Shown one piece after another: positions 3,818-24,046 of a stretch of 24,046 nt of DNA. The notes under the pieces were generated by a model that was not told the DNA's origin, did no database searches, and saw only the letters and a list, made by a program, of their open reading frames with translations. Positions within the stretch are counted from its first letter, which is position 1. Each line of letters begins with the position of its first letter. The DNA is from an uncultured virus (IMG/VR IMGVR_UViG_3300032069_000862) (taxonomy: Duplodnaviria; Heunggongvirae; Uroviricota; Caudoviricetes), in IMG/VR virus record IMGVR_UViG_3300032069_000862; one strand, 5' to 3'. Made by a program: the position numbers and the translations under genes.

Positions 3818-3833
3818 GGGTAATATTTAAATA
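3818..3833 (+). promoter_or_regulatory. TATA promoter of mcm
   Basis: GGGTAATATTTAAATA ending 35 nt before ATG 3868. Confidence 0.65.
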
Positions 3834-3867
3834 TCGGCATTCACATACTATTTCTAGGTCTAAATAG

Positions 3868-6868: not shown

Positions 6869-6900
6869 TTGGTATGACTTTATTTTTATTCGGTGCACTT

Positions 6901-9900: not shown

Positions 9901-9948
9901 GTTGGATGTCAAACCATTGAGGATTATGCGAGGGAGATATTTGATTAA
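6901..9948 (+). CDS. lonB: Membrane-anchored ATP-dependent protease LonB, intein-containing (about 688 aa after splicing)
   Basis: IIGQDQA, Walker A GDAGTGKS, two TM helices inside the AAA+ domain, DPYQTGGLGTPEHQRV, Walker B LFIDEI, HPALLDRI, catalytic Ser in EGPSAG and Lys in GGTHEK. ATG 6901 preferred over 6874 (GGTG at 6892, promoter spacing). Confidence 0.95.
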   Translation: MPDDYFGEKNEKWDWKNFKNTQGFPISDQLIEWIIGQDQAIRECRLCIDEWVHKLTYLKKKKWWKAFEDPMGLKPQPKEWLPAGPFLLLLGDAGTGKSLIGRAMSSYMTEVYKKHKIKLYDVLSWKNKDLPSEPKISIHQAGKGKEIIFSQTHKIERKSWFQRWGIKLLRLFMGGFGLVLIGLSMFIILASENPLWTLITVSPLVIGGGSLLFFAVMIGWFGKLSGGGPAQGIGGAERSDAPKLLVDNSSGRVPYIDACLLPETMVWTNQTLRNNYQITDSILNREGYSQKIINIEKRQWKGKIVRIKPRLLPEIVVTENHPILTQNRGWIIAKELQPNDVLIIQIPKSVNREIPEDLAWLFGIYLAEGFVKKEGYNWNQKKHGEHWARELGFTLGFHEEELSTRIKTIFKKYYNYKLKEDYHNSQEIQLNCYSANLNRFFRNSFGESATSKHIPADVFMWNEKGKRAFLRGYWEGDRINSKQNGYATASKQLFYDLIALHLSLGEIPSTFIHVCKGGIIRGRKVIPSLQYSMVINGKEKARNYKQKGSQLLLPVRNVRIENYSGEIINLETEDGTVPLPFITHNTGHGSAQLFGSIAWDPYQTGGLGTPEHQRVSAGDVHRAHLGILFIDEIKNLTGAEAITLLTVLEEGQIPIALRSLFHGGDTAAMAVSTEPVPAMVFFIAAGNLDSLPNIHPALLDRIQGYGKTVYMNNYMDNTVENRRKVVQFIAQEIKRFNLLPFTRESCIEIIEESRRKSGRKDKLTTKFRPLISIIKTASTLARDKDESEVDVKYVREAVEVHCKSIYQQILERIVTEKNVYLIINPKSEPKIGQIYGLAVTKDPNADEMMGTVLPIRASMEEPKKKQNGYFHITGVDVKNESYIQHSISKVSHVIQQICGFSPLDKRTHIDFAQSHGVEGPSAGVAMTLALLSIINKKEIRQDVAVTGEINVGVDGQIMITPIGGTHEKIMAAQRWGFSKVLIPLKNYENDIIPSEYKIKVVGCQTIEDYAREIFD
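7675..8655 (+). mobile_element. Intein with LAGLIDADG-type endonuclease in LonB (327 aa)
   Basis: Begins CLLPETMV, block B VTENH, LFGIYLAEG and FLRGYWEGD, ends ITHN before Thr; removal restores PYIDA-TGHGSAQLFG. Confidence 0.94.
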
Positions 9949-10933
9949 TCTTTGTTTTGTTATGAATCTTCCACAGGAAAACTTCTTTCAATGGGAAATT
10001 GCTTTAAGAAATTATGTCAGTTCAGAGTTTAAGATTGATTTTGTTACCATAGATTCAGATTTGATTCCTGAAAGTAAATTGGAAACTCTAAAGAATGCTG
10101 ATGTTATTTTTGTAAGATGTGTAGGTCATAATATTAATTGGGAATGGTATAAACTTCCGTTCATAATACGCAAAGTTGCACCAAAAACTAAAATTATCTA
10201 TCAAGAAGATATGGACTTCATGTGGCTTTTTATTCCAAATCATTATATATGGAATGATTTGCCAACAGAGGCTAAGGGAAAGTCACCCGAAGAATTTCTT
10301 GATGAATGTAATTTATTAGAAGTAATTGATGCATGGAATATTGAATATAATCCTCTTTTGGAACAATACATTAGGAAAAGAAGTTCTAAGCCAATATATC
10401 ATTTGATTCTGCCTCAACTTGTCAGATACAAAGAATATTTACAAGTTTTTCCCAGCAAATCAGAATTAAAGACTAAAATGAGAAATATTGCACTACTTAA
10501 ACACAGTGTTAAATCCGCATCCATCAAACATTTAGTTGAGAATTTATCGTATCACTTTAAGATTTTTAATTCAACCTCACACGAGGGACGGATGCCACTA
10601 CAGGGATTCATGTTTTTATTAAGTCATAATTGTTATATTGCCATTGATGATAATGAAAACTATAAAGCGTGGTCAAGATTTGGTATGGAATGTGCTTTGG
10701 CTCATGTGCCTTGCATCGGTTCAATGCCATCTGTTAAGTTATTCTTTCCAGAACTATATACTGAACACCAAGACTATGACAAACAAAAGAAATTAATTGA
10801 ACGGTTATTTAATGATGAAGATTTCTGGTTGAGAATGGCAAAAACTGGAAAGGAAAACGTTTTACGAATAATGAATACGTCTCAATTGACCAATAAACTT
10901 TTCCAGATTGTTAAGAGGGTGCAAAATGCATAG
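9941..10933 (+). CDS. Divergent GT-B fold glycosyltransferase-like protein
   Basis: C-terminal SRFGMECALAHVPCIGS...IERLFNDEDFWLRMAKTGKENV resembles GT-B C-terminal domains; glycan-operon context. TTG 9941 with GGGAG upstream overlaps the lon stop (track start 9899). Confidence 0.55.
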   Translation: MINLCFVMNLPQENFFQWEIALRNYVSSEFKIDFVTIDSDLIPESKLETLKNADVIFVRCVGHNINWEWYKLPFIIRKVAPKTKIIYQEDMDFMWLFIPNHYIWNDLPTEAKGKSPEEFLDECNLLEVIDAWNIEYNPLLEQYIRKRSSKPIYHLILPQLVRYKEYLQVFPSKSELKTKMRNIALLKHSVKSASIKHLVENLSYHFKIFNSTSHEGRMPLQGFMFLLSHNCYIAIDDNENYKAWSRFGMECALAHVPCIGSMPSVKLFFPELYTEHQDYDKQKKLIERLFNDEDFWLRMAKTGKENVLRIMNTSQLTNKLFQIVKRVQNA

Positions 10934-11840
10934 ATTAAAAATTTTAATAGTAATAGACCAATATGGTTGGGCGTTTGATTTTGCAGCTAGAGGAATTCAA
11001 AAATATTCAAAGCACGATGTTACAATAGAAAGATACGATAAAATTTCTGGGATATGGCAATCTTATGATGTTATATTCTTTATGAATAATTCAATTTTTC
11101 GTGATAAGAAACGATTTATAACTTCTGGAAAACGAATATGTGTAGGAATTAGAGGTGGATTAATAATACAAGAAAAAGGATGTGATAGAATTATACAAGG
11201 ATGCGATAATACTGTAGAAGGATGTGATATTGCCTGCGTATCCAAAGAAATCTATGATTTTCTATCTCAAAAGAAAATTTCAAGACTTCATCTTTGTCAC
11301 AATGGCGTTGATGATGAAATTTTTAAACCCTTTCAGAGACCGAAAGATAGGTTTGTTGTTGGTTGGGCAGGAAATCCCAATTCCAGTCCTAAAAGATATT
11401 ATTTACTTGGGCTGTTTGGAGAATTCGGGTTTCCAGTTAAAGTGATGGGAAGGTGGGGAAGACAATATTTTATTCCAAATAGGTCTCGTCAGGAAATGAT
11501 TGATTTTTATGAAAGTATAGATTGTCTCATTTGTGTAAGTGACGCTGAAGGGATGCCTCAGCCAATATTAGAAGCAGCTGCTACTGGATTACCCGTTATT
11601 TCGACTGATGTTGGTGGTGTTCCAGAGTTTTTAGACAAAGAATGGTTAATTCCCATTCAATCTAATCCAAAACTTCAAGTTGAAGAGTTTATAAAAAAAC
11701 TTCGTATATTAAAAGAAAATTCCGAATTAAGATTCGAAGTTGGTCAACGTAATTTACAGAAAACTTTAAATACTTGGTCGTGGAAGAATATTGTAAAAGA
11801 ATACGATAGGATGTTTGAGGGAAATGAATTATCTAAATAA
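10926..11840 (+). CDS. Glycosyltransferase family 4
   Basis: HNGVDDEIF, VGWAG, E-x7-E signature EGMPQPILE, AAATGLPVISTDVGGVPE. ATG 10926 follows GAGGGTG. Confidence 0.92.
   Translation: MHRLKILIVIDQYGWAFDFAARGIQKYSKHDVTIERYDKISGIWQSYDVIFFMNNSIFRDKKRFITSGKRICVGIRGGLIIQEKGCDRIIQGCDNTVEGCDIACVSKEIYDFLSQKKISRLHLCHNGVDDEIFKPFQRPKDRFVVGWAGNPNSSPKRYYLLGLFGEFGFPVKVMGRWGRQYFIPNRSRQEMIDFYESIDCLICVSDAEGMPQPILEAAATGLPVISTDVGGVPEFLDKEWLIPIQSNPKLQVEEFIKKLRILKENSELRFEVGQRNLQKTLNTWSWKNIVKEYDRMFEGNELSK
11176..11229 (+). repeat. Three degenerate in-frame repeats of 21-nt period
   Basis: AAGGATGYGATA at 11176, 11197 and 11218, encoding GCDRIIQ-GCDNTVE-GCDI. Confidence 0.7.
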
Positions 11841-13110
11841 AATTAATCTTGATTTTCTGTTTAAATCACAATATTGGACAAAAGAACAATTAAAAGAATT
11901 ACAGTTTGATGGTTTGAAGGATTTAATAATTCACGCTAAAAAGAACTGTTTGTTTTATAAGAATTTACCTATTATTCACGATATAGATGATTTAAAGAAT
12001 ATTCCAATATTGACCAAACGACAAATTCACAACAATTTTTCTGCACTAACGGCAAATAATATTCCAAGTTGTAGAAAATGGACTGGTGGAACTTCTGAAC
12101 AGGTGGTCATTCTCTCGAACTTAGACCAAAAACAAATAATAGATATGAAAATAAGATTTGATTCTTGGCATCCGAAAGAAACATGGAAACGCCAAGCTGT
12201 AGTTTGGGGTGGTGGCGAACTTGCCCACAAAGAGCCATATGAAGTTCGAAATGCTCTACATGAATATTTTGGAATATATAGTGTGCATTATTTTCCAATA
12301 GAATGGATGGTTGACGAAGAAACAACACTTAGATATTTAAAAATGATGGTAAAATTCAATCCAACATCAATAAGAGGTTATGCTTCAGCCCTACGGAAAT
12401 TGTCTTATTATGCAATTAAACACAATATAAAATTATCAGATTTAAAATGTATTATTAATAATTGTGAACCTCTTACAGAGGACACTCGAAAACTTGCTAG
12501 AGAAGCATTTAATGCTGAAATCTTTAATTTTTATGGCTCTCAGGATTTGGGTTCTATGGCACAAGACTGTGAAAAACACGAAGGACTACATTTAGGTATG
12601 GAACGCTATATTCTTGAAATTATGCCAGATGGACGACTTATATGGACTGATTTACTTAATTATGCTATGCCATTAATACGTTATGAAAATGGAGATATTG
12701 GCGAACTAGATAAATCATGTTCATGTGGTAGAGGACTAACTACTTTAAAAAACATTGTTGGTCGAACATTTCAATACCTATGGACGAAACAGGGAACTTG
12801 GTTAAACGTGACGGAAATTAATGAAGCCATGTATTACGATGTTCCAAATTATCTTGATTTAATTGAAGCTCACCAAGTTCAGCAAGATGAAAAAGGCAAA
12901 ATTAAATTATTATTAAAACCATGGGATAAGAATAAGTTACCTAATATGACCATAATTCAGAAATATTTTGCTAATCGACTGGACATTGAAATTATTTATG
13001 TTGACGAAATGGTTCTTTCAAAAAGTGGAAAACAATTAGCTTGTATTACTAAATTTAGACCACCGTGGATAAATAAAAATGAGTGGGAAATCGACAGAAC
13101 CGAAGGCTGA
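11824..13110 (+). CDS. Phenylacetate-CoA ligase (PaaK/CapK-like) adenylate-forming enzyme
   Basis: IPILTK, degenerate P-loop WTGGTS, GYASAL, CEPL, FYGSQD, MPLIRYENGD, IVGR, SKSGK. ATG 11824 follows GAGGG. Confidence 0.85.
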   Translation: MNYLNKINLDFLFKSQYWTKEQLKELQFDGLKDLIIHAKKNCLFYKNLPIIHDIDDLKNIPILTKRQIHNNFSALTANNIPSCRKWTGGTSEQVVILSNLDQKQIIDMKIRFDSWHPKETWKRQAVVWGGGELAHKEPYEVRNALHEYFGIYSVHYFPIEWMVDEETTLRYLKMMVKFNPTSIRGYASALRKLSYYAIKHNIKLSDLKCIINNCEPLTEDTRKLAREAFNAEIFNFYGSQDLGSMAQDCEKHEGLHLGMERYILEIMPDGRLIWTDLLNYAMPLIRYENGDIGELDKSCSCGRGLTTLKNIVGRTFQYLWTKQGTWLNVTEINEAMYYDVPNYLDLIEAHQVQQDEKGKIKLLLKPWDKNKLPNMTIIQKYFANRLDIEIIYVDEMVLSKSGKQLACITKFRPPWINKNEWEIDRTEG

Positions 13111-13116
13111 TGGGCA

Positions 13117-14325
13117 TTGAAAGTTCTGTGGATTTTTAGAAATACGTTGCCCGTTCAGTTTAATTCTGAGTTTATAAAAGATTTTGAAAAGAAGATTGGA
13201 AAAAATAATATTGTTTTTTATGGAATTGCGGGACTTCCGAAGTATGATTCTTCGGGATTGGCTTTTTATCCATCTAATTATAAAATATTTCGTGGAAACA
13301 ATTTTAAAGAAGTAGTGAAAGAAGAAACGCCCGATGTAGTAGTGGTAGATAAGGATTATGTTAATACTGGCGGAGTAGATATTCCGAGAGCAACATTTAT
13401 GATGGACGTTCATGGAGAATGGTTTAACCGATTTGAACGAGTTAAGACTGGTCAAATAGATATGATTTTTCTTAGATATTATGGTAATGGAATAGCTTTT
13501 AGAGTGAAGCACGATATGAAATGTGCCGTTGGATATTGTCCGTGGTCAATTTCTCCTAAATTATTTTATGATTTGAATTTGGAACGTGTTCGAGATGTTT
13601 ATATTACAGGTTCTCATAATCCTATTTATCCAATTAGAATGATGCTTCATTTTCCTATCCAACAAAAATATGGACACACGCCAATAGAAGGATACATCGA
13701 TGATTTCACATTTATTGCCGATGAGAAGAAATTTCTTTATTATAGATATTTTTCTACGTTAAATACTTCGAAGATGGCGGTTTTTGATTCCAGTCTCTTC
13801 AAATATCCCCTTATGAAGTTTTTTGAGGTAATGGCTTGTAATACTCTGGCTATGTCTGATTTGCCTGTTGATTGGGAAGTATTAGGATTTAAACCTGAAA
13901 TCAATATGGTTTCAATAAATTATTATGATTATTTAGACAAGATTAAATATTATATTCGAAATGAGGACGAGCGGAAACGAATTGCCCAAAATGGCATGAA
14001 TCTCATTTTAAATTATCATACAAATGAAATTAGGGCAGAACAATTAATATTTCAACTTGAGGAATTAATAAATGCAAAAAATGAGGAAAGAACATTTAGT
14101 GAACAAAACGTTAAGGGCGAAATGGGTAAAATGTTATCTATTTTAAAACAAAACGAAAAATATTATGACAGGGGCAATCTTCTTCATCAAACTATAGATA
14201 GAGGATATGTAAATTTAATAGACAACTGGTATCCTAAAGCCCATGCATTGTGGGGAAAAATATATAAAAAAGAAGCAACAATACAAGATTGGATTAATTT
14301 TGTCGAACATGGAGATGATAAATAA
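13117..14325 (+). CDS. CgeB-like glycosyltransferase (Glyco_trans_1_2 type)
   Basis: YPLMKFFEVMACNTL and DKIKYYIRNEDERKRIAQNGMNLILNYHTNEIRA match the typical C-terminal pattern; TTG start. Confidence 0.8.
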   Translation: MKVLWIFRNTLPVQFNSEFIKDFEKKIGKNNIVFYGIAGLPKYDSSGLAFYPSNYKIFRGNNFKEVVKEETPDVVVVDKDYVNTGGVDIPRATFMMDVHGEWFNRFERVKTGQIDMIFLRYYGNGIAFRVKHDMKCAVGYCPWSISPKLFYDLNLERVRDVYITGSHNPIYPIRMMLHFPIQQKYGHTPIEGYIDDFTFIADEKKFLYYRYFSTLNTSKMAVFDSSLFKYPLMKFFEVMACNTLAMSDLPVDWEVLGFKPEINMVSINYYDYLDKIKYYIRNEDERKRIAQNGMNLILNYHTNEIRAEQLIFQLEELINAKNEERTFSEQNVKGEMGKMLSILKQNEKYYDRGNLLHQTIDRGYVNLIDNWYPKAHALWGKIYKKEATIQDWINFVEHGDDK

Positions 14326-15198
14326 ATGAAAATTCTAGTAACTGGCGGTTCAGGATTTATCGGAACATCTTTGGCTAGGCGATTAATGAAAGCTGGTCAT
14401 AAAGTAATGAGTTTAGATGTTTATCCGCCACGGATTGATATTGATTACGTTAAAGCAGATATTACTGACCCCAAAATAAAAGAGGCGAAGTTTTGGAAAG
14501 GAATTGATGTTTGTTATCATCTTGCGGCTATGGCAAACGTGGATGATTGCAGAGTTTATAAAGACAAAGCATTCTTTGTAAATCTTTACGGCACATTCAA
14601 CATTGCTGAAGCGTGCAGGCGACACAATATTAAAATGATTTTTGCCAGCACAGTCTGTGTTTATGGAATTACTACTCAACACCCATCAACTGAGGATGGA
14701 CCGACACATCCGATGGATTTATATGGCGTGACGAAACGGGCTGGTGAGGAAATTGTAAAACTCCTTCCAATATGGGTGATTCTAAGATTTGGAACAACAG
14801 TAGGTCCAGAAATGCGTCCCGCCCTTGTAACATGGATATTTCTTAATCAGGCTCATAATAATGAACCATTTACTATAACTGGAACTGGTGGGCAAAGTCG
14901 AAATTGGATTTATGTCGAAGATTTGGTAGAAGGCTGTTATAAAGCCCTTAAAGCCGAAAATCAAATCATTAATCTTGTCGGTAAAAAATCTTATACAGTT
15001 TATGAAGTGGCGGAAATGTGTGCTGAAGTCGTTAATGGAACTGCTAAAAACATGCGAGTAAAATATATTCCAGCAAGAGAAGGCGACGTATTTAAAGAGG
15101 ATATATCAATCGAAAAAGCCAGAAAACTGTTGAAGTGGACTCCCAAAGTCGATTTGAAGGAAGCCCTACGGAAATCATACAAACAAATATTCAGATAA
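14326..15198 (+). CDS. NAD-dependent nucleotide-sugar epimerase/dehydratase (extended SDR)
   Basis: ILVTGGSGFIG, HLAA, FAST, catalytic YGVTK, GTGGQSRNWIYVEDL, REGD. Confidence 0.93.
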   Translation: MKILVTGGSGFIGTSLARRLMKAGHKVMSLDVYPPRIDIDYVKADITDPKIKEAKFWKGIDVCYHLAAMANVDDCRVYKDKAFFVNLYGTFNIAEACRRHNIKMIFASTVCVYGITTQHPSTEDGPTHPMDLYGVTKRAGEEIVKLLPIWVILRFGTTVGPEMRPALVTWIFLNQAHNNEPFTITGTGGQSRNWIYVEDLVEGCYKALKAENQIINLVGKKSYTVYEVAEMCAEVVNGTAKNMRVKYIPAREGDVFKEDISIEKARKLLKWTPKVDLKEALRKSYKQIFR

Positions 15199-16680: not shown

Positions 16681-16815
16681 GTGGATTTCAATTATCAAGC
16701 GTGTCCTCTATGTAAAGGCAAAGGTATAGATGAAAATCTTAAAGTATGTTCTCTTTGTAAAGGAACTGGAAGAATTATAGTTCGATTTTTACCACCAATA
16801 GTCACCATTAAATAA
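16681..16815 (+). CDS. 44-aa DnaJ-type CxxCxGxG zinc-finger microprotein (not in ORF track)
   Basis: GTG start with GGTGA at 16670; MDFNYQACPLCKGKGIDENLKVCSLCKGTGRIIVRFLPPIVTIK. Confidence 0.8.
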   Translation: MDFNYQACPLCKGKGIDENLKVCSLCKGTGRIIVRFLPPIVTIK

Positions 16816-16831
16816 CCGCAATCTTTAAATA
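16816..16831 (+). promoter_or_regulatory. BRE-TATA promoter of the methyltransferase operon
   Basis: CCGCAATCTTTAAATA ending 35 nt before ATG 16866. Confidence 0.7.
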
Positions 16832-16865
16832 GTCTTGCCGATATATTTTTTGTTAGGTCTAATTA

Positions 16866-18485
16866 ATGAATGAATCCGTTAAACCTATAGAATGGTGGCT
16901 CAATAAGATTCATTGCGAAAAAATAGGGCAAATGATAATTAAAGAAATACCAGATAATTCTATTGATTGTATAGTAACTGACCCGCCTTATGGTTATAAT
17001 TTTATGGGTAAAGATTGGGATAAGGCTGTTCCGAGTGTGGAATGGTGGAAGGAATGTTTGCGGGTCTTGAAGGCTGGGGCGTTCATGTTTGTTATGTCTG
17101 CTCCACGGCAAGACGTTCTTAGCCAAATGATAGTGAGGTTGGGGCAAGCTGGATTTGAAACTGGGTTCACAAGCATTTACTGGGCTTATGCAAGCGGATT
17201 TCCAAAAGCCATGAATGTTTCATTAGCCGTTGATAAACAAGAGTGCAGGAAACAGTTGAGGGAGAAACTTGGTAGAGAACCAAGCAAGGAAGAATTTAAA
17301 GAGGCGTGGAAACAATTTAGAAAAGTTTTAGGTGAGAGTCCTTACAATTATAAAAGACCAAATGAGGGAAAAACTGGCAATACTACTTATGCTCAAGGTG
17401 GTTACAAAGCATATATTACTGAACCCGTTTCTGATAAAGCCAAAGTCTTAGACGGTAGTTACGGCGGTTTCCAGCCTAAACCAGCAGTCGAAATCATCAT
17501 TGTCTGCATGAAACCGTTAAGCGAGAAAACGTATGTTGAGCAAGCGTTGAAGAATGGGAAGGGGATAACATTGCTTGATGATGCAAGAATACCATATACA
17601 TCCAAAGATGATGTAAGTGGTTGGAGTAAAACTGGTGCAGATGGAAGCAAAGGTTATCAACGAACAGACACTTTTAAAATTAGACCAATTACACCTGAAG
17701 AAATCCAAGAAAGATGTGTAAGTAAAGGTCGTTTTCCAGCCAACTTGCTCGTGAGCGATGACGTGTTGAATGATGGAAAATTATATGAGGGAAAGAAACC
17801 CTTCAAGAAATTAAGCAAGTATGCTTGGGTAGAACAACAACAGAAAAATCAGAAGTTTGAAAGTCAAGCTGGATTGGGAGAGAAAGGTTCTTTCGGTTCT
17901 TTCAGTCGTTACTTCGATTTGGATAAGTGGTTCGAGAAAGCGGTTGAGAATCTTCCAGAAGATGTTAAGAAGACGTTTCCGTTTCTGATTTGTCCAAAAG
18001 CAAGCAAGAGTGAAAGAGAAGCGGGTGGAACGGGTGAGCGTAGTGTAACCGAAGGATTCCCAGAAACACAACGAGTCAATATTCATCCAACGGTTAAGCC
18101 CATTAAACTTATGAGTTATCTGGTTACGTTGGGTAGTCGTGAAGGCGATATAATTCTTGACCCGTTTGTTGGTAGTGGAACAACTTGCATATCGGCGAAG
18201 ATGCTTAATAGAAAATGGATAGGCATTGATTGTTATCCAGAATATTGTGAGATAGCGAGTGCTAGACTTGAAAACTGCGAAATAGTTAGACATGATTTAA
18301 CTTCTGAAGAAAAAATTGTTGAACAACAATCAACAGTTCAACCAATAGAAAAACCAGTAGAGATAAAACAAGAGATAAAAGAAGAAGGTATTAAATGCCC
18401 AAAATGCGGAACTAAAATGTATAAGGGAAAGAAGGCATATTATTGCATAAAAGCAAACTGTGATGGAATGATGGAAATAAAATGA
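16866..18485 (+). CDS. Beta-class DNA amino-methyltransferase (probably N6-adenine), phage type, with C-terminal Zn ribbon
   Basis: Motif IV VTDPPY near the N-terminus, GRFPAN, HPTVKP, motif I DPFVGSGTT; tail CPKCG...CIKANC. Confidence 0.92.
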   Translation: MNESVKPIEWWLNKIHCEKIGQMIIKEIPDNSIDCIVTDPPYGYNFMGKDWDKAVPSVEWWKECLRVLKAGAFMFVMSAPRQDVLSQMIVRLGQAGFETGFTSIYWAYASGFPKAMNVSLAVDKQECRKQLREKLGREPSKEEFKEAWKQFRKVLGESPYNYKRPNEGKTGNTTYAQGGYKAYITEPVSDKAKVLDGSYGGFQPKPAVEIIIVCMKPLSEKTYVEQALKNGKGITLLDDARIPYTSKDDVSGWSKTGADGSKGYQRTDTFKIRPITPEEIQERCVSKGRFPANLLVSDDVLNDGKLYEGKKPFKKLSKYAWVEQQQKNQKFESQAGLGEKGSFGSFSRYFDLDKWFEKAVENLPEDVKKTFPFLICPKASKSEREAGGTGERSVTEGFPETQRVNIHPTVKPIKLMSYLVTLGSREGDIILDPFVGSGTTCISAKMLNRKWIGIDCYPEYCEIASARLENCEIVRHDLTSEEKIVEQQSTVQPIEKPVEIKQEIKEEGIKCPKCGTKMYKGKKAYYCIKANCDGMMEIK

Positions 18486-19267
18486 TTGAACTTAATAAAA
18501 TCTTTTTGGAAAAGCAAGGAAAATTAGATATTTTGAAACAGATTCCAGATAAAACTATTCATCTAATTGTTACATCTCCACCCTATCCTATGATAGAAAT
18601 GTGGGATGAAATATTTGAAAATGTTGGTTGTAGAACTTATGATGGGATGCATGATTTTCTTGCAAAGTTTTGGAAAAAATGCTATAATATTTTAATAGAT
18701 GGCGGCATTCTTTGTATAAATATAGGAGATGCAACACGTTCTATAAATGGAAAATTCAAACTATATCCAAATCATGCTAGAATAATTGAGATTTGTGAAC
18801 AAATTGGATTTAAAACACTTCCTTTTATTTTATGGAAAAAACCAACTAATAAACCCAATGCCTTTTTGGGGTCGGGATTCTTACCACCAAATGCATATGT
18901 CACTCTGGATTGCGAATTTATCTTAATTTTCAGAAAGGGAGACCTCAGAAAGTTTTCTCCAAATGATAAAATTCGTTATGATAGTCAATATACAAAGGAA
19001 GAAAGAGATAAATATTTCTCTCAAATATGGGAAATAAAAGGCTGTCCGCAAAACAATCTAGGAAAGAGAACGGCATCTTTTCCAGAAGAGATTCCATATA
19101 GATTAATCAAAATGTTTTCGGTAAAAAATGATATTATTTTAGACCCCTTTGTAGGAATTGGAACTACTTGTATAGCGGCTAAAAGGCTTAATAGAAGATA
19201 TATAGGAATTGAAATTTATCAAGAATATATAGATTATGCTAATAAGGAGTTAGCAAAAATTGAATAA
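18482..19267 (+). CDS. Beta-class DNA methyltransferase (probably N4-cytosine)
   Basis: VTSPPY, ASFPEEIPYRLIKMFS, DPFVGIGTT; ATGA overlap with the upstream gene. Confidence 0.93.
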   Translation: MIELNKIFLEKQGKLDILKQIPDKTIHLIVTSPPYPMIEMWDEIFENVGCRTYDGMHDFLAKFWKKCYNILIDGGILCINIGDATRSINGKFKLYPNHARIIEICEQIGFKTLPFILWKKPTNKPNAFLGSGFLPPNAYVTLDCEFILIFRKGDLRKFSPNDKIRYDSQYTKEERDKYFSQIWEIKGCPQNNLGKRTASFPEEIPYRLIKMFSVKNDIILDPFVGIGTTCIAAKRLNRRYIGIEIYQEYIDYANKELAKIE

Positions 19268-20213
19268 AATTGAGATAATTGAATATAAGTCGAATGGTCA
19301 TCCAGATACGTTGACTGACCTCTGTGTTGAAGCGTGTGCATCGTCTTTGGATGAATATTACGTTAAAAAATATGGACGAGTTTTACATTATAATGTTGAT
19401 AAGGCAGTTTTTCTTGCTGGCGATGCTAAAGTCTGGTTTGGCGGTGGACGAATAATTAAACCGCCATGCTTTATTCTTGGCGGTCAAGTAAGCAATTTAA
19501 CAAACGAATTAAAACAAACTCTAATTAGAACAATTACCGAAACCATAAAACTACACCTTCCAAATCTTGAAAAATTCAATATTGAAATAAGATGTAATAA
19601 TGTCGCTCAAAATCTTACAGATATATCTGTTCAAAATAAAATATTATGTAATGATACATCTTTTGGTGTAGGTTATTATCCGTTTTCCGTTAACGAATTG
19701 AAAGTAATGTCTATTCGTGATGAATTATATAAAATGATTTTAGAACAAGAAATTCCTATCGGAGAACTTTTCAAGATAATGTTAACTCCGAAAACAATTT
19801 CTATATCTGCCCCGCTTTATGCACAAAGAGTTCATAACATAGAGCAGTATGCAAAATATAAAGCCGAAATAGAAAAACATTTAAGCAAATACGGAAATGT
19901 GGTTTTTAATCCAGACTTTGAAAGTGGTTTTCCTTATTTAACTTTAACTGGCTCGTCAATTGAATGTGGTGATGATGGACAGGTTGGTAGAGGAAATCGC
20001 TATAACGGACTGATTACGCCATGCAGACCAATGACCATGGAAGCATATCACGGAAAAAATAACAAAAACCATATTGGTAAAATATACCAGAAATGGGCGT
20101 TTGAAAAAGCCAAACAAATTTATGAAAAAACTGGCAAATATACAGAAATCATTCTAGTTGGTAAAATAGGAAAACCAATAACTGACTATGAAATTTATCA
20201 ATTAACGGGGTGA
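19260..20213 (+). CDS. mat: Archaeal-type S-adenosylmethionine synthetase, shortened (317 aa)
   Basis: EYKSNGHPDTLTD, HYNVDK, NDTSFGVGYYPFS, YLTLTGSSIECGDDGQVGRGNR, GLITPCRPMTMEA, GKN..NHIGKIY; TTG start after AAGGAG. Confidence 0.9.
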   Translation: MNKIEIIEYKSNGHPDTLTDLCVEACASSLDEYYVKKYGRVLHYNVDKAVFLAGDAKVWFGGGRIIKPPCFILGGQVSNLTNELKQTLIRTITETIKLHLPNLEKFNIEIRCNNVAQNLTDISVQNKILCNDTSFGVGYYPFSVNELKVMSIRDELYKMILEQEIPIGELFKIMLTPKTISISAPLYAQRVHNIEQYAKYKAEIEKHLSKYGNVVFNPDFESGFPYLTLTGSSIECGDDGQVGRGNRYNGLITPCRPMTMEAYHGKNNKNHIGKIYQKWAFEKAKQIYEKTGKYTEIILVGKIGKPITDYEIYQLTG

Positions 20214-20216
20214 TAA

Positions 20217-21089
20217 ATGATGGCAAAGAAGAAAACTGGTTGGAAACGGTATCCACACATTCCACTTTTGCTTTCACTTAAACCGTCTCCACGAATTCTT
20301 CTTGGACAACGATTATTCTGGACTACAAAAGCCGATGGAAGTTGCATAGCCCTCTGGCTTGACGAAAAATCAAAAATCAGAATATCCAGTAGAAATCTTG
20401 AAACCGCTTCAATTGGTTTACAAAATCTAGTTAAAAATTATGAGGATTATCCTAAATTATTAGAATTATTAAAAGAAAATCCGCAGTTCATAATTTATGT
20501 TGAAGCCTGCCGAAAAGGAAGAAGCGTGACTGGAATTGAAAATTATGAGCGAAATATCCTCTATGTATTCGACATCTACGATAAAAATTCGGCGAAATTT
20601 TTGCCCTATGTGAATGTCCACCAACATGCTTACCACCACAATATCCCCTGCGTGAAATTATTCGCCGAAACTCGTCATCGAAGCATGAAAGACTTGCTAA
20701 AGTTTTCAAACCACGCTTTAGAATATTGTGAGGCGATGCATATTGAAGGTATGGTAATCAAGGCTTATAAAGTGCCAGAAACATTTTCTGAATGGCGTGA
20801 ATTTGAGGACGGATTGATTCAAGCGAAAGTTAAACTTGACGTTCCTGAACCAATTAAACGCAAAATTAGTAAAGGGGAAGTTATTCTTCCGCCAATGCCA
20901 GACAATGAAGTTTACGGGGCAATATCGAAGGTTGAAGCTGATTCTGGATTAACTGGCGAAGCAAAACACGATTTACCACTTATTGCGAAATATGTTAACG
21001 AAGAATGCAAAAAACATTTGTATAAAGAACCTAAAGGAAAACTGTATAACTATTGGAAAGATTATTTAGAAAGGATGATGAAAAAATGA
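20217..21089 (+). CDS. ATP-dependent RNA ligase family protein
   Basis: Nucleotidyltransferase motifs I TKADGS, Ia ISSRN, III YVE, IIIa YVFDI, IV EGMVIK, V AKVK; N-terminal RYPHI as in RNA ligases; no OB domain evident. Confidence 0.82.
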   Translation: MMAKKKTGWKRYPHIPLLLSLKPSPRILLGQRLFWTTKADGSCIALWLDEKSKIRISSRNLETASIGLQNLVKNYEDYPKLLELLKENPQFIIYVEACRKGRSVTGIENYERNILYVFDIYDKNSAKFLPYVNVHQHAYHHNIPCVKLFAETRHRSMKDLLKFSNHALEYCEAMHIEGMVIKAYKVPETFSEWREFEDGLIQAKVKLDVPEPIKRKISKGEVILPPMPDNEVYGAISKVEADSGLTGEAKHDLPLIAKYVNEECKKHLYKEPKGKLYNYWKDYLERMMKK

Positions 21090-21421
21090 TGCGAATAAAA
21101 ATCAGGCGAATAAGACATAACTACGATGCCAGATTCTTTAAATATGAAAGGATAAAAAAGCCATCAGATTCTGGAATTTCGTTTCTTCATAATAAAATTT
21201 TTGTGGCTGATTGTTATATGGAAAATTGTGGGTTCTGGCTGCATGAATTAACTGAACTATCAATCATTCGCATTCTAAATCGTTGGAAATATCCATGGAG
21301 AAATTGGGTTCGTTTTAGAGGTTTTAAAGAGGCGAAAATTGCTCATTTTATAAGTCCTTTTGGATTAAATAATAATCGTTGTTTGTTGCCTCAAAAAAAT
21401 AAGCGTGACCCTAAATGGTGA
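21086..21421 (+). CDS. Hypothetical basic protein with HExxE motif
   Basis: WLHELTE with downstream AH; ATG 21086 overlaps the ligase stop (ATGA); track start 21053. Confidence 0.6.
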   Translation: MMRIKIRRIRHNYDARFFKYERIKKPSDSGISFLHNKIFVADCYMENCGFWLHELTELSIIRILNRWKYPWRNWVRFRGFKEAKIAHFISPFGLNNNRCLLPQKNKRDPKW

Positions 21422-21714
21422 AACGGTTAGAAATTAGAACTGGAGAATGTGGCTGTTTTTCTTTCTTCCCCCCCAGTCCATATGGTCATTATTGTCATCA
21501 TAAAAAATCCATTTATCTTGGAAATAAATGCACGGAACGATATATTGAAAGAGTTCTTAATCATGAGTCAATTCATTGGATAATTTCTCAAAATATAGGT
21601 TTTAAGATGTCTAGTGAATTCGATAATTTATTCTATGGAGTCAATAGTGTTGCTTCGAATGGAACGCCAAATAAAATAATTGATTTAAAAAAAGAGCAAA
21701 TTATTATACGATAA
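21415..21714 (+). CDS. Small zincin-like (HExxH) protein
   Basis: SIYL...VLNHESIHWII, the strand-then-HExxH-helix layout of minimal zincins. Confidence 0.6.
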   Translation: MVKRLEIRTGECGCFSFFPPSPYGHYCHHKKSIYLGNKCTERYIERVLNHESIHWIISQNIGFKMSSEFDNLFYGVNSVASNGTPNKIIDLKKEQIIIR

Positions 21715-21770: not shown

Positions 21771-21834
21771 AAGATTAATCAATTGATTAAACGAATCTTA
21801 CTAATTTTTGGCAAGATTAATCAATTGATTAAAC
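21771..21834. repeat. Two 22-bp direct repeats containing palindrome copies 3 and 4
   Basis: AAGATTAATCAATTGATTAAAC at 21771-21792 and 21813-21834 (42-bp period). Confidence 0.9.
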
Positions 21835-21884: not shown

Positions 21885-22067
21885 ATGACACCACCACCAT
21901 TTAGAAAACCAAAACCCTTATTCGATTCAGAGGTAGGATATTGCCCGTTCATGAAGGATACATGCCGAAGAGACTGTGTATTCCATAGTAATGGTTCAAA
22001 TGTGAATGTTAACTATACTGAATGTTTAATAATGAAAGCGATAACAAAGATTATTTATGGTGTTTAA
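21885..22067 (+). CDS. Small Cys-rich hypothetical protein
   Basis: CPF..DTCRRDCVF...EC pattern; first gene after the promoter. Confidence 0.65.
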   Translation: MTPPPFRKPKPLFDSEVGYCPFMKDTCRRDCVFHSNGSNVNVNYTECLIMKAITKIIYGV

Positions 22068-22891: not shown

Positions 22892-23178
22892 CAAATCCCC
22901 TATGTCCAGAAAAAGGTTGCAAACGTGTAATGATAATCAAGGAATTCACAAACTGTATTGAAAAAGGTCGATGGGGTCTCAGTAAATATTGGGTTTGTCC
23001 AGTTCATAAACATCAAAGATTCAAGGTTGGTGCTGAAGTTATCCTAAGAAAGCCAGTTCCAATAAAAGAACCAAATCTCTATGAAGGGTCAGAAAAAGCA
23101 ACTAAGCCAAGTCGTCAAAGGCGATTTCTTGTTCCGAGAAAAATTAGAAGGAAGATAATCCGTGAACAAAAAGAATGA
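22888..23178 (+). CDS. Hypothetical Zn-ribbon protein with basic tail
   Basis: CPEKGC...CPVH, Arg/Lys-rich C-terminus; AAGGAG site and ATGA overlap. Confidence 0.65.
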   Translation: MTNPLCPEKGCKRVMIIKEFTNCIEKGRWGLSKYWVCPVHKHQRFKVGAEVILRKPVPIKEPNLYEGSEKATKPSRQRRFLVPRKIRRKIIREQKE

Positions 23179-24046
23179 AGAATCTGTAATTATTTGGGAT
23201 TTAATGAACGGCGACCATAACCAAAAACATAAAGTTTGTGAGTCTCATCTACGCTCAATTTTTAAAGGCATTACTGCAAAAGCGATGGAAGTTATTGTTG
23301 ATTTCGTTGTGATTAACATTTTCCTCAATCGTTCGATGGAATCTTTTGGAATTGCTATGGGAATTGAATTCTTCTGTTATTGTGTGAATTACGTAAATGA
23401 ACGAATGTGGCTTCGTTTCTCATATGGAAGAAAAATAATAGACGTGGACAATTCCCCACAAGATTCTTTTTGGATTTATATTGCATCTTTCTTAGATGGA
23501 GAAGGTTACATAGTGAAACGAAAAACAAGAACAAACGACAAATTTCCAATAATAGGACTTTCACAGGTGAAACCAAAAGTTCTCGAAGTTATCAGAGAAT
23601 TTTTGTCCAATAATGAAATAACGACAAGTTTTTTTAGTCATAGGAGCGGAATCAACAATTCTCTTTGTTGGCACTTAACAGTTAATAGGCATGAAGACAA
23701 GATTAAATTTTTGGAAAACGTCATTCCATTTATGATTGTAAAGAAAAAATTAGCTGAAGAAGCACTGCATTGGTTAAAATTTGAGAGAAAAATTAAAAGA
23801 AAATCATTTTCAGACTTTCAAATTTCTGAAATCATTAGAGCGTTTAAAACTGGTCGAAAATGCGAAGATTTGGGGTTTAAATATGGTTGCAATGCTAGAA
23901 CTATAGGGAAATTATTACAGAAAAATGGCGTAAATTTGAGAACATACAGCCAAAAAAGAAATCGTAATAAAAATGGAAGATTTCTAACTAAATCCATTTA
24001 CCAAAAGATAATTCAATGGGGACGGAAAATTACTCACAAAAAATAG
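23162..24046 (+). CDS. DUF2061-like domain fused to a single-motif LAGLIDADG homing endonuclease with probable C-terminal HTH
   Basis: ESHLRSIFKGIT...YVNERMWLRFSYG (DUF2061-like), YIASFLDGEGYI, FLENVIPFMIVKKK, EDLGFKYGCNARTIGKLL. True start may be ATG 23204. Confidence 0.78.
   Translation: MNKKNEESVIIWDLMNGDHNQKHKVCESHLRSIFKGITAKAMEVIVDFVVINIFLNRSMESFGIAMGIEFFCYCVNYVNERMWLRFSYGRKIIDVDNSPQDSFWIYIASFLDGEGYIVKRKTRTNDKFPIIGLSQVKPKVLEVIREFLSNNEITTSFFSHRSGINNSLCWHLTVNRHEDKIKFLENVIPFMIVKKKLAEEALHWLKFERKIKRKSFSDFQISEIIRAFKTGRKCEDLGFKYGCNARTIGKLLQKNGVNLRTYSQKRNRNKNGRFLTKSIYQKIIQWGRKITHKK

What the first reader, a model, noticed from the sequence alone, without database searches (positions are those of the whole stretch)
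16816..21714. Operon linking two DNA methyltransferases, their own SAM synthetase and an RNA ligase: candidate counter-defence cassette
Seen: one promoter, then DPPY MTase, SPPY MTase, MAT, RNA ligase and two zincin-like ORFs, all overlapping or 3 nt apart, with no recognisable restriction endonuclease. Established: orphan viral MTases protect against restriction; T4 RNA ligase repairs tRNA cut by the PrrC anticodon nuclease; T3 encodes a SAM lyase that depletes SAM. Inference: this element does the reverse, supplying SAM for its own m6A/m4C methylation or offsetting SAM depletion, while repairing cut RNA. I do not know a described archaeal virus with this arrangement.
Basis: partly seen in the sequence, partly recalled or inferred. 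Interest (0 to 1): 0.8.

Follow-up and report, generated by a model that had tools for sequence, protein, structure and literature searches.

The report
Viral DNA-methylase plus SAM-synthetase cassette
An uncultured, probably archaeal virus carries two DNA methylases next to its own stripped-down enzyme for making their methyl donor (SAM), a pairing that recurs in related viruses, while the neighbouring RNA-ligase gene belongs to the virus backbone and is not part of that unit.

Summary
The six tightly packed + strand genes at 16866-21714 are real. They are two beta-class N6/N4 DNA methylases (DPPY, SPPY), a 317-aa archaeal-type SAM synthetase (MAT), an RNA-ligase-type nucleotidyltransferase and two small ORFs. 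All lie behind one archaeal-style TATA box.

The MAT-methylase link is strongly supported:
- A DNA methylase is the immediate neighbour of this short MAT in 17 of 24 distinct loci. For full-length cellular MATs the figure is 0 of 47.
- The partner methylase comes from four families and sits on either side.
- The partner differs even between sister MATs.
- The MAT is under purifying selection (dN/dS about 0.1) and folds like archaeal MATs.
- It keeps all catalytic residues checked except one ribose-binding Asp, which is Leu here.

The RNA-ligase link is not supported. In the closest syntenic relative (L174) the same promoter and the same ligase/small-ORF backbone are present, but two unrelated genes replace the MT1-MT2-MAT block. 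None of 8 ligase-bearing viral loci has a MAT nearby.

Only one of the two small ORFs is zincin-like. No restriction enzyme was recognisable.

Best reading: a swappable self-methylation cassette with its own SAM supply. The function is inferred, not shown. This scan found the same short-MAT/methylase module before on other DNA (e1-6225010).

The parts
16824..16831 (+). TATA-box-like promoter element TTTAAATA, 42 nt upstream of the MT1 start codon
   Evidence: TTTAWATA occurs 21 times against 9.4 expected, and 0 of 100 shuffles reach 21. + strand copies sit 38-43 nt before the ATGs of PolB (943), MCM (3826), the trypsin-like gene (15729) and MT1 (16824). The promoter stretch is conserved up to the ATG in L174.
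16866..18485 (+). MT1: 539-aa beta-class N6/N4 DNA methyltransferase. It has DPPY, a roughly 200-aa insertion between motif IV and the SAM-binding motif, and a C-terminal CxxC...C zinc-ribbon-like tail
   Evidence: PF01555 3.8e-32 covering profile 1-219 over residues 33-464; PADLOC Type II MTase models; CcrM, DpnA and N4C MTases in the PDB; sequence.
18482..19267 (+). MT2: 261-aa beta-class N6/N4 DNA methyltransferase with SPPY
   Evidence: PF01555 1.8e-49; PADLOC MTase_II 3e-94; PDB 2zie 3.5e-41.
19260..20213 (+). Short (317 aa) archaeal-type methionine adenosyltransferase (SAM synthetase). It lacks the archaeal N-terminal strand and about 40 C-terminal residues
   Evidence: PF01941 1.8e-74, profile 16-353 of 395; PDB archaeal MATs about 1e-48; model pLDDT 91 with TMq 0.89-0.91 to 6s81/4k0b/7p83; dN/dS 0.099 against L014.
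20217..21089 (+). 290-aa ATP-dependent RNA-ligase-type nucleotidyltransferase with a small helical C-terminal domain. This is a backbone gene, not part of the methylation cassette
   Evidence: PF09414 1.7e-11. K38xDG, E96, E177-G178, K204xK206 are invariant in 32 homologues. The NTase domain gives Z 16.9-15.3 to Rnl3, Rnl5, Rnl2 and Rnl1 structures, and DNA ligases give 13-14.5. Syntenic in L174 at 83% identity.
21086..21421 (+). 111-aa ORF of unknown function (listed from TTG 21053; ATG 21086 overlaps the ligase stop). It contains HELTE, not HExxH
   Evidence: junction; 73% identical homologue directly after the ligase in L174; no Pfam or Atlas hit.
21415..21714 (+). 99-aa mini zincin-like protein (HESIH plus a downstream FDNLF Asp, and N-terminal Cys residues)
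   Evidence: 24 representative clusters at E<=1e-3. H50 and E51 are invariant, H54 and D70 nearly invariant in 25 aligned sequences, including the L174 protein in the same position. Atlas lead to SprT-like is weak.
21771..21834 (.). Operon boundary: two copies of a 22-nt repeat, each holding the perfect 16-nt palindrome TTAATCAATTGATTAA, followed by a TATA-like GTTTATAA and the next ATG (21885)

Best explanation
The window is part of a roughly 96-kb DNA virus or virus-like element of an uncultured, probably archaeal, host. One archaeal-type promoter at 16824 drives a six-gene operon.

The first three genes form a portable self-methylation cassette. It holds two orphan beta-class DNA methyltransferases of different specificity, and a minimal archaeal-type methionine adenosyltransferase that makes S-adenosylmethionine from host methionine and ATP. 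The MAT keeps the methyl-donor supply high, or independent of the host pool, while the viral genome is replicated. The viral methylases can then fully modify new DNA and shield it from host restriction.

The cassette sits in a swappable cargo slot at the head of the operon. The RNA-ligase-type gene, the 111-aa ORF and the mini-zincin behind it are conserved backbone genes of this virus group. Their role is separate and still unknown.

Shown: gene identities, linkage statistics, selection, fold and synteny.
Inferred: SAM synthesis activity, DNA targets, protection from restriction, and the host.
For: (1) Adjacency. Of 24 distinct loci with a short-clade MAT (the window plus 23 from viral and metagenome contigs), 17 have a DNA methyltransferase as the immediate neighbour. 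Fifteen are above the Pfam cut-off and two are weak or truncated. The families are N6_N4, C-5, MT-A70 and N6_Mtase-like, upstream or downstream.

(2) Control. Of 47 full-length cellular MAT loci (93 neighbour ORFs), 0 have one. Fisher p = 3e-11.

(3) Partner switching. Sister MATs with 100% bootstrap support differ in partner: MT-A70 upstream against N6_N4 downstream, and N6_N4 upstream against downstream.

(4) Selection. dN/dS is 0.099 for window against L014 and 0.108 for L001 against L021. All 136 computable pairs are below 0.28.

(5) Fold and residues. The model has pLDDT 91 and TMq about 0.9 to archaeal MATs. H14, D16, N45, D132 and K172 are invariant in 94 of 94 short-clade representatives; H43, D238, R244, R247, K266 and H271 in 93 of 94.

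(6) Restricted to mobile DNA. The short form makes a 100%-supported clade. The best hit among the 80 loci kept from 185,579 species genomes is 41% identical. The best among 400 genomes of one archaeal phylum is 44%.

(7) Cargo swap. L174 keeps epimerase (83%), the trypsin-like gene (93%), the small CxxC ORF, the promoter, the ligase (83%), the 111-aa ORF (73%) and downstream genes. It has 119-aa and 210-aa unknown ORFs in place of MT1-MT2-MAT.

(8) Earlier scan note e1-6225010 reports the same kind of module in another genome.
Against: - No activity, methylome or expression data exist.
- One named ribose-hydroxyl ligand (TkMAT Asp201) is Leu170 here, and is Leu in 71 of 94 short-clade representatives, against Asp in 26 of 26 long forms. 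Normal SAM synthesis is therefore not guaranteed.
- The MAT scores below every NCBIfam curated cut-off (259 bits against 435).
- 7 of 24 loci show no adjacent DNA methylase. Four of these are cut on one side, two have neighbours of unknown family, and one has a Methyltransf_31/glycosyltransferase fusion.
- Loci share ancestry, so the Fisher test overstates independence.
- The dimer needed for MAT active sites could not be tested.
- The window itself holds no capsid or terminase gene, so 'virus' rests on relatives.
Confidence: 0.55

Rival explanations
1. One reading: all six genes form one counter-defence cassette. The methylases and MAT protect DNA, while the RNA ligase reseals tRNA or other RNA cut by a host anticodon nuclease.
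For: - In this window the ligase is co-directional, 3 nt after the MAT and behind the same promoter.
- All ligase motifs are intact and RNA ligases are its best structural matches.
- L003 has a different PF09414 ligase about 3 kb upstream of its MAT.
Against: - L174 keeps the ligase, the small ORFs and the promoter without MT1-MT2-MAT.
- 0 of 8 viral loci with ligase homologues (L174-L181) have a MAT within 5 kb, and 1 of 8 has a methylase within two genes.
- Only 2 of 24 MAT loci have any PF09414 gene.
- No polynucleotide kinase/phosphatase and no tRNA gene lie in the window.
- Six contig lengths recur in the ligase and MCM hit lists. This suggests the ligase travels with the replication backbone.
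Confidence: 0.1
2. The MAT is a general auxiliary metabolic gene. It raises SAM for any SAM-using process in the infected cell (RNA, protein or glycan methylation, polyamines, radical-SAM enzymes). It sits near methylases only because SAM-related genes are co-regulated or co-transferred.
For: - Viromic surveys list metK among common viral auxiliary genes. In PMC12180181 (passages read) 8.59% of 11,505 AMGs were metK and 22.8% were dcm. PMC10980836 (passage read) also lists it.
- In L015 the neighbour is a Methyltransf_31/glycosyltransferase fusion rather than a DNA methylase.
- A BT1-family transporter lies beside the module in L003, L019 and L029.
- The window has a large glycosylation cluster.
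Against: The immediate neighbour is a DNA methylase in 17 of 24 loci, across four DNA-methylase families. Hardly any other methylase was found among the roughly 100 flanking ORFs scanned. The selected link is therefore to DNA methylation.
Confidence: 0.2
3. The short MAT has changed function. It may make a SAM analogue from another nucleotide, or act as a non-catalytic partner or regulator of methylases.
For: - The clade-specific Asp-to-Leu change at the ribose-hydroxyl ligand occurs in 71 of 94 short forms and 0 of 26 long forms (residue role from PMC3853416, section 8 read).
- The N-terminal strand and the C-terminal ~40 residues are lost.
- The score is below the NCBIfam cut-offs.
Against: - All other named catalytic and substrate residues are kept and are invariant in the clade.
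- 19 of 94 short forms still have Asp.
- The partner methylases belong to ordinary SAM-dependent families.
- Binding to four unrelated methylase families is unlikely.
Confidence: 0.08

Closest known systems
Virus-encoded orphan DNA methyltransferases used for self-protection against restriction (for example phage Dam- or Dcm-like enzymes; recalled, not tested here)
   Same: MT1 and MT2 are beta-class PF01555 enzymes without a recognisable endonuclease partner, on a viral-type element.
   Different: Here, and in 16 other loci, the methylase is physically coupled to a dedicated SAM synthetase.
Viral metK/SAM-synthetase auxiliary metabolic genes listed in virome surveys (PMC12180181 and PMC10980836, passages read)
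   Same: A virus-borne SAM synthetase is discussed together with dcm as part of methionine metabolism.
   Different: In the passages I read, those surveys give counts by KEGG function. They do not describe a distinct shortened archaeal-type clade or its gene-by-gene adjacency to DNA methylases. No GenBank phage or archaeal-virus record of 50,697 holds a PF01941-type MAT by tblastn.
Archaeal methionine adenosyltransferases (TkMAT 4L4Q, PfMAT 6S81, SsMAT 4K0B, MjMAT 7P83; PMC3853416)
   Same: Same fold (TMq ~0.9), 30-33% identity, and the catalytic His and substrate residues are conserved.
   Different: About 80 residues shorter. It lacks the archaeal-specific N-terminal strand and the C-terminal strand/helix. 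Asp201 is replaced by Leu. It is found on viral and metagenome contigs, not in the cellular genomes searched.
Phage T3 SAM lyase, which degrades SAM and inhibits MetK (bioRxiv 10.1101/2023.02.27.530186, search listing and abstract start only)
   Same: A virus manipulates the SAM pool in the conflict with SAM-dependent host defence.
   Different: The direction is opposite (synthesis, not destruction) and the protein is unrelated.
T4 Rnl1/Pnkp repair of tRNA cut by PrrC (recalled)
   Same: A virus-encoded ATP-dependent RNA-ligase-type enzyme with intact motifs I, III, IIIa, IV and V.
   Different: - No Pnkp-like partner was seen.
- The NTase domain ties equally with Rnl3, Rnl5, Rnl2 and Rnl1 (Z 15.3-16.9).
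- The C-terminal domain is a short three-helix unit, not assigned to any family.
Earlier finding of this scan, e1-6225010 (another genome)
   Same: A shortened archaeal-type SAM synthetase wedged between DNA methylases on an uncultured viral genome.
   Different: That element was read as a phage and also has a SAM-lyase-like gene. None was seen here. Here the cassette is shown to be a swap-in relative to a syntenic relative.

Membership tests
Archaeal-type methionine adenosyltransferase (Pfam PF01941) | Sequence match above the curated family threshold | tested here: met
   251.4 bits against a cut-off of 27.
Archaeal-type methionine adenosyltransferase (NCBIfam PRK04439 models) | Score above the curated equivalog or subfamily cut-off for full-length enzymes | tested here: not met
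   Best 259.1 bits against a cut-off of 435 (NF003366); the others are 177-223 against 481-577.
Archaeal-type methionine adenosyltransferase | Catalytic His and substrate residues named for TkMAT (H33, H62, N64, N161, Y271, D283; loop D144/L145) | tested here: met
   They map to H14, H43, N45, N131, Y226 and D238 by the pairwise alignment, and are invariant or nearly so in 94 short forms. D121/I122 align to the loop residues, but that column is variable, so the mapping is uncertain.
Archaeal-type methionine adenosyltransferase | Second ribose-hydroxyl Asp (TkMAT D201) | tested here: not met
   Leu170 in the window. Short forms: Leu 71, Asp 19, other 4 of 94. Long forms: Asp 26 of 26.
Archaeal-type methionine adenosyltransferase | Three-domain MAT fold | tested here: met
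   Model pLDDT 91, pTM 0.89; Foldseek E 1e-33 and TMq 0.89-0.91 to 6s81, 4k0b and 7p83.
Archaeal-type methionine adenosyltransferase | Archaeal-specific N-terminal beta-strand (TkMAT 1-17) and full C-terminal domain | tested here: not met
   The profile match starts at position 16 and ends at 353 of 395. The alignment shows both ends missing in all short forms.
Archaeal-type methionine adenosyltransferase | Homodimer with active sites at the interface; SAM synthesis | not testable with these tools
There is no assay.
Beta-class N6-adenine/N4-cytosine DNA methyltransferases (PF01555) | Motif IV (D/S)PPY before the SAM-binding FxGxG motif, with a family score above cut-off | tested here: met
   MT1 has DPPY then DPFVGSGTT; MT2 has SPPY then DPFVGIGTT. 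Scores are 112.5 and 169.1 bits against 26.7.
Orphan (solitary) methyltransferase | No cognate restriction endonuclease nearby | tested here: inconclusive
   No endonuclease family hit any window ORF in four libraries. Restriction enzymes often escape profiles, and two small ORFs stay unassigned.
ATP-dependent RNA ligases (covalent nucleotidyltransferase superfamily) | Motifs I (KxDG), III, IIIa, IV (EGxVxK) and V (KxK) | tested here: met
   K38, D40, G41, E96, I120, E177, G178, V180, K204 and K206 are invariant, and D119 nearly invariant, in 32 sequences.
A specific RNA ligase family (Rnl1, Rnl2, Rnl3, Rnl5) | Family-specific flanking domain and best structural match clearly above the other families | tested here: inconclusive
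   Z is 16.9 (Rnl3 5d1o), 16.8 (Rnl5 5cot), 16.1 (Rnl2 2hvr) and 15.3 (Rnl1 2c5u), all over residues ~5-211 only. These are ties within about 1. The C-terminal helices 229-289 were barely tested.
T4-type tRNA repair system (Rnl1 with Pnkp) | End-healing kinase/phosphatase encoded with the ligase | tested here: not met
   No PNK or phosphatase family among the window ORFs. Only 24 of about 96 kb could be seen.
Zincin metallopeptidases | Conserved HExxH plus a third ligand | tested here: inconclusive
   ORF 21415-21714: H50 and E51 are invariant, H54 and D70 nearly invariant in 25 sequences, but there is no Pfam match. ORF 21086-21421 has HELTE only, so the motif is not met there.

The most novel reading that the evidence does not exclude
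The short MAT is a virus-specific minimal SAM synthetase whose clade-wide Asp-to-Leu change at a ribose-hydroxyl ligand alters its nucleotide or product specificity. The virus would then make a methyl donor, or donor analogue, that serves its own methylases. That donor would be useless to, or protected from, host SAM-dependent defences and SAM-degrading enzymes. On this reading the MAT-methylase cassette is a private cofactor economy rather than a simple booster.
Probability: 0.07. Interest if true: 0.9.

Novelty: new variant of a known kind. Interest (0 to 1): 0.55.

Why it matters
If the cassette works as proposed, the methyl donor itself is a contested resource in virus-host conflict. Some phages destroy SAM to disarm host systems. 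These viruses would do the reverse and bring a minimal SAM synthetase to guarantee their own epigenetic camouflage.

The repeated re-pairing of this MAT with four unrelated DNA-methylase families argues that selection acts on the pairing itself.

The 317-aa enzyme is also the smallest natural archaeal-type MAT form seen here. It could interest people who use MATs to make SAM and its analogues.

The finding also gives a clean example of a cargo slot behind a conserved promoter in an uncultured archaeal-type virus group.

Tried and rejected
- No whole genome is held for the window.
- Exact 36- and 40-base patterns from the window ends found no viral contig, so the rest of the ~96-kb contig could not be read.
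- The tree programs could not be loaded. A Biopython NJ tree with 100 bootstraps was used instead.
- The look-up of sequencing runs listed no RNA holder.
- Read laying on four sediment DNA runs gave contigs only. The whole stretch is covered in X1, possibly the source sample. The MT2/MAT junction is bridged by one X2 contig. X3 and X4 pieces end less than 31 nt beyond the junction and were not counted. Parts without cover say nothing.
- Sigma-70-type promoters are not enriched (38 against 33.3 expected), nor are terminator hairpins (3 against 4.8).
- The window has no tRNA and no Rfam family.
- The cassette shows no compositional anomaly. Gene GC is 0.30-0.39, inside the range of its neighbours, so a recent foreign origin is not shown.
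- The Atlas gave no usable hit for the 111-aa ORF, and only a weak SprT-like lead (11% of members, 120-127 shared features) for the 99-aa ORF.
- The 99-aa ORF is not related to the M48-like ORF of L001.
- The two unknown ORFs that replace the cassette in L174, and the unknown neighbours in L011 and L024, have no Pfam family at E<=0.1.
- Six literature searches found no paper describing MAT-methylase adjacency in viruses. Subscription journals and supplements were not searched.
- One preprint on mobile elements of Asgard archaea (10.1101/2024.03.22.586370, passages) held nothing on a SAM synthetase.

Full report
**Observation**

All genes of the 24-kb window but three at its left end lie on the + strand. 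At 16866-21714 there are six ORFs whose junctions I read directly:
- MT1/MT2 share ATGA.
- MT2/MAT overlap by 8 nt.
- The MAT stop and the ligase ATG are 3 nt apart.
- The ligase stop overlaps an in-frame ATG at 21086 of the next ORF. That ORF is listed from TTG 21053, so it is more likely 111 aa.
- The last two ORFs overlap by 7 nt.

Pfam identifies the following:

| ORF | Family | E-value |
|---|---|---|
| MT1 (539 aa, DPPY) | PF01555 | 3.8e-32 |
| MT2 (261 aa, SPPY) | PF01555 | 1.8e-49 |
| Third gene | PF01941 archaeal AdoMet synthase | 1.8e-74 |
| Fourth gene | PF09414 RNA ligase | 1.7e-11 |

PHROGs, NCBIfam and PADLOC agree on the methylases. They give no restriction endonuclease for any ORF of the window. 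Six minus-strand ORFs inside the region have no credible family (only one sub-threshold hit, FAST_1, E 0.048).

**Promoter and operon limits**

TTTAWATA occurs 21 times against 9.4 expected, and 0 of 100 shuffles reach 21. + strand copies lie 38-43 nt before the start codons of PolB, MCM, the trypsin-like gene and MT1 (16824-16831). This fits archaeal TATA boxes with short leaders.

No + strand copy lies between 16831 and 21137. Bacterial-type promoters and hairpin terminators are not enriched.

After the last ORF come two copies of a 22-nt repeat, each with a perfect 16-nt palindrome. A TATA-like element and the next ATG follow. One transcription unit from 16824 to about 21714 is the simplest reading. 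It is inferred, not shown.

**The element**

The window also encodes the following:
- PolB.
- An MCM interrupted by a LAGLIDADG-type insertion.
- A LonB-type protease with intein signatures.
- A glycosylation cluster.
- A trypsin-like protease.
- A LAGLIDADG protein.

The MAT's own cluster lies on a 96,147-bp contig. Named cellular relatives of the MCM C-terminal half are all archaeal and at most 46% identical. Closer hits are unnamed metagenome proteins.

Relatives of the MAT and of the ligase lie on contigs of a viral collection. One ligase-bearing relative (L175) has a terminase domain 1.5 kb downstream. The window itself has no capsid or terminase gene. 'Archaeal virus' is therefore a reasonable inference, not a result.

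**The MAT-methylase link**

A protein search found 94 cluster representatives of a short form (median 316 aa), at least 41% identical to the query. These were followed by 26 longer forms (median 369.5 aa) at 36-40% among the best 120 listed.

I collected every locus I could. There are 24 distinct loci with a short-clade MAT: the window, L001-L005, L011, L014-L017, L019-L021 and L023-L032. I dropped these as duplicates:
- L006-L010.
- L012, which equals L011.
- L018, which equals L002.
- L022, which has the same arrangement as L004.

I also left out L013, which is a 399-aa full-length MAT next to an integrase.

Pfam on the flanking ORFs shows a DNA methyltransferase as the immediate neighbour in 17 of 24:
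- N6_N4 upstream: window, L001, L016, L017, L028, L032.
- N6_N4 downstream: L014 (cut by the contig end, 23.8 bits, below cut-off), L019, L026, L027.
- N6_N4 on both sides: L004.
- C-5 upstream: L005, L025.
- C-5 downstream: L002, which also has an N6_Mtase-like fragment upstream.
- MT-A70 downstream: L003. MT-A70 upstream: L023.
- A weak N6_Mtase hit downstream: L029.

The seven without one are:
- L011 and L024, whose neighbours have no family.
- L015, with a Methyltransf_31/glycosyltransferase fusion.
- L020, L021, L030 and L031, which start at the contig edge, so only one side is visible.

As a control I chose 56 loci with full-length cellular MATs from species genomes. Nine gave no clean MAT ORF under my simple ORF rule and were dropped. 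None of the 93 neighbour ORFs of the remaining 47 loci is a DNA methylase. Fisher's exact p is 3e-11, or 1.4e-9 counting only the 15 strong cases. The loci are related, so this overstates independence.

A neighbour-joining tree (BLOSUM62 distances, 100 bootstraps, 29 sequences) answers that in part. The short forms are one clade (100%) nested among 359-367-aa forms such as one labelled Micrarchaeota. Three sister pairs with 100% support differ in partner:
- L023 (MT-A70 upstream) and L026 (N6_N4 downstream).
- The window (N6_N4 upstream) and L014 (N6_N4 downstream).
- L004 (N6_N4 on both sides) and L024 (none).

**Where the short form occurs**

- Among the 80 loci kept from a scan of one genome per 185,579 species, the best match is 41% identical.
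- Among 400 genomes of the phylum of one Promethearchaeota chromosome, 305 have a MAT. The best is 44% identical, with open frames mostly of about 400-440 aa.
- One short-form cluster (P0022) carries an NCBI MAG label of that phylum. I could not inspect its contig.
- No record of 50,697 deposited phage and archaeal-virus genomes matches the MAT by tblastn.

**Is the MAT functional?**

- dN/dS (NG86) is 0.099 for window against L014 (dN 0.073, dS 0.741) and 0.108 for L001 against L021. No computable pair exceeds 0.28, and many distant pairs are saturated.
- An AlphaFold model from 24 short forms has pLDDT 91 and pTM 0.89. It matches archaeal MAT structures at E 1e-33 and TMq 0.89-0.91.

I mapped residues using the TkMAT paper (PMC3853416; abstract, passages and section 8 read) and the pairwise alignment.

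| TkMAT residue | Window residue | Status |
|---|---|---|
| H33 | H14 | kept |
| H62 | H43 | kept |
| N64 | N45 | kept |
| N161 | N131 | kept |
| Y271 | Y226 | kept |
| D283 | D238 | kept |
| D144 / L145 (loop) | D121 / I122 | aligned, but the column is variable in short and long forms alike, so the mapping is unsafe |
| D201 (one of two Asp said to hold the ribose hydroxyls) | L170 | replaced |

Across the family, position 170 is Leu in 71, Asp in 19 and other in 4 of 94 short forms. It is Asp in 26 of 26 long forms.

The short form lacks the archaeal-specific N-terminal strand (TkMAT 1-17) and about 40 C-terminal residues. That paper links the N-terminal strand to stability.

The protein scores below all NCBIfam cut-offs.

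**The RNA ligase is backbone, not cassette**

A scan with 32 ligase homologues found nine viral loci. L182 matches only 46 residues and was set aside.

L174 is a close syntenic relative of the window. It shares:
- The epimerase (83% identical).
- The 157-aa ORF (64%).
- The trypsin-like gene (93%).
- The small CxxC ORF.
- The ligase (83%).
- The 111-aa ORF (73%).
- A 115-aa HEVVH protein in the place of the 99-aa ORF.
- Four further downstream ORFs.

The DNA before the first gene, including the TATA element, is conserved up to the ATG and diverges right after it. Where the window has MT1-MT2-MAT (3.35 kb), L174 has a 119-aa and a 210-aa ORF of no known family.

None of L174-L181 has a MAT by tblastn (0 of 8). 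One (L178) has a methylase within two genes. Of the 24 MAT loci only the window and L003 have any PF09414 gene. L003's lies about 3 kb upstream and has a different architecture.

Six contig lengths recur in the ligase and MCM hit lists. This suggests that the ligase travels with the replication genes.

**What the ligase is**

Motifs I (K38xDG), III, IIIa, IV and V are conserved in 32 sequences, all but one position invariant. The model has pLDDT 91.3.

Its nucleotidyltransferase domain (residues ~5-211) gives these matches:

| Structure | Z |
|---|---|
| Archaeal Rnl3 | 16.9 |
| Naegleria Rnl5 | 16.8 |
| T4 Rnl2 | 16.1 |
| T4 Rnl1 | 15.3 |
| Trl1 | 14.8 |
| DNA ligases | 13-14.5 |

It is an RNA-ligase-type enzyme of no assignable family. 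Its three-helix C-terminal domain was barely tested. No healing enzyme and no tRNA gene are in the window. Its substrate is open.

**Small ORFs**

The 99-aa ORF has 24 relatives at E<=1e-3 among 1.84 billion representatives. H50 and E51 are invariant, and H54 and D70 nearly invariant, in 25 aligned sequences that include the L174 counterpart. This fits a minimal zincin. There is no Pfam match, and only a weak Atlas lead to SprT-like proteins.

The 111-aa ORF has HELTE, not HExxH, and no family.

**Mechanism**

I read MT1-MT2-MAT as a portable self-methylation cassette. Two methylases with different recognition domains modify the replicating viral DNA. The MAT makes their cofactor on site, so that methylation keeps pace and does not depend on the host pool.

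That DPPY points to adenine-N6 and SPPY to cytosine-N4 is recalled and not tested. The closest solved relatives of both include m6A and m4C enzymes.

The position of the cassette in a slot that holds other genes in a close relative fits the way accessory and counter-defence genes vary in viral genomes. This is an analogy, not a test.

Rivals are given with odds in their sections.

**Comparison and novelty**

Orphan viral methylases and viral metK genes are both known. Virome surveys count metK and dcm among common auxiliary genes (PMC12180181 and PMC10980836, passages read; PMC13037316, a passage that places metK in the bacterial host's genome, not in the phage).

In six searches I did not find a description of three things:
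- This shortened archaeal-type clade.
- Its restriction to viral or metagenome contigs.
- Its repeated pairing with four DNA-methylase families.

This window is therefore a second instance, with added evidence from the census, the control and the cargo swap. I rate it a new variant of a known kind.

**Limits**

- Everything about activity, targets, expression and host is inferred.
- Neighbourhoods could be read for only 24 of about 94 short-MAT clusters.
- Only a quarter of the contig was visible.

Noticed in passing
window 3868-6852 and 6874-9948: The MCM helicase (994 aa) carries a LAGLIDADG_3 domain between its OB and AAA+ parts. The LonB-type protease (1024 aa) carries Intein_splicing and LAGLIDADG signatures. 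Both look like intein-bearing replication or proteostasis genes. An intein-free MCM with its C-terminal half identical over 81% of the 335-aa query part exists in the database (P0228, 615 aa).
   Followed up: partly
window 16681-16815: A small ORF (GTG start, about 44 aa) with two CxxCxGxG motifs (DnaJ central domain, E 1.2e-4, below cut-off) lies between the trypsin-like gene and the promoter. It is conserved in L174 at 3825-3968.
   Followed up: partly
window 21771-21834: Two copies, 42 nt apart, of a 22-nt repeat that holds the perfect palindrome TTAATCAATTGATTAA lie just upstream of a TATA-like element and the ATG at 21885. This looks like an operator pair for a dimeric regulator.
   Followed up: no
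L003 3647-4864, L019 668-1846, L029 1256-2284: A BT1-family (folate-biopterin transporter type) membrane protein is encoded beside the MAT/methylase pair in three loci. From recall, this transporter family includes a SAM transporter in Leishmania. A viral one-carbon or SAM uptake function would be worth a look.
   Followed up: no
L174 4021-5005: In the syntenic relative the cargo slot behind the same promoter holds a 119-aa and a 210-aa ORF with no Pfam family. They are candidates for another accessory or counter-defence function.
   Followed up: partly
L179 4935-6572: A ligase homologue is split in two pieces (residues 1-171 and 151-285 of the query) by an ORF with an HNH endonuclease domain. 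This looks like a homing-endonuclease or intron insertion.
   Followed up: no
L030 1606-1989: A ribosomal protein L31e homologue (an archaeal/eukaryotic family) lies two genes after a short MAT and a PolB fragment on a 2.1-kb metagenome contig.
   Followed up: no
L015 1431-3065: Directly after a short MAT lies a 545-aa fusion of a Methyltransf_31-like domain (below cut-off) and a glycosyltransferase domain. This may be a non-DNA use of the SAM supply.
   Followed up: no
L178 7516-10746: A 1076-aa ORF combines MCM-like similarity, intein and LAGLIDADG signatures and DNA-methylase domains (UPF0020, Eco57I, N6_N4). It follows a Topo VI-A/Spo11-like gene next to a ligase homologue.
   Followed up: no
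window 23162-24046: This 294-aa ORF has an N-terminal ~95 residues homologous to an L174 ORF (42%), followed by a LAGLIDADG_3 domain that the L174 match does not cover. A homing endonuclease may have been inserted in, or fused to, a conserved small gene.
   Followed up: no
window 9899-15198: A cluster holds two or three glycosyltransferases, a phenylacetate-CoA-ligase-like adenylating enzyme and an NAD-dependent sugar epimerase/dehydratase. It suggests virus-directed glycan modification.
   Followed up: no
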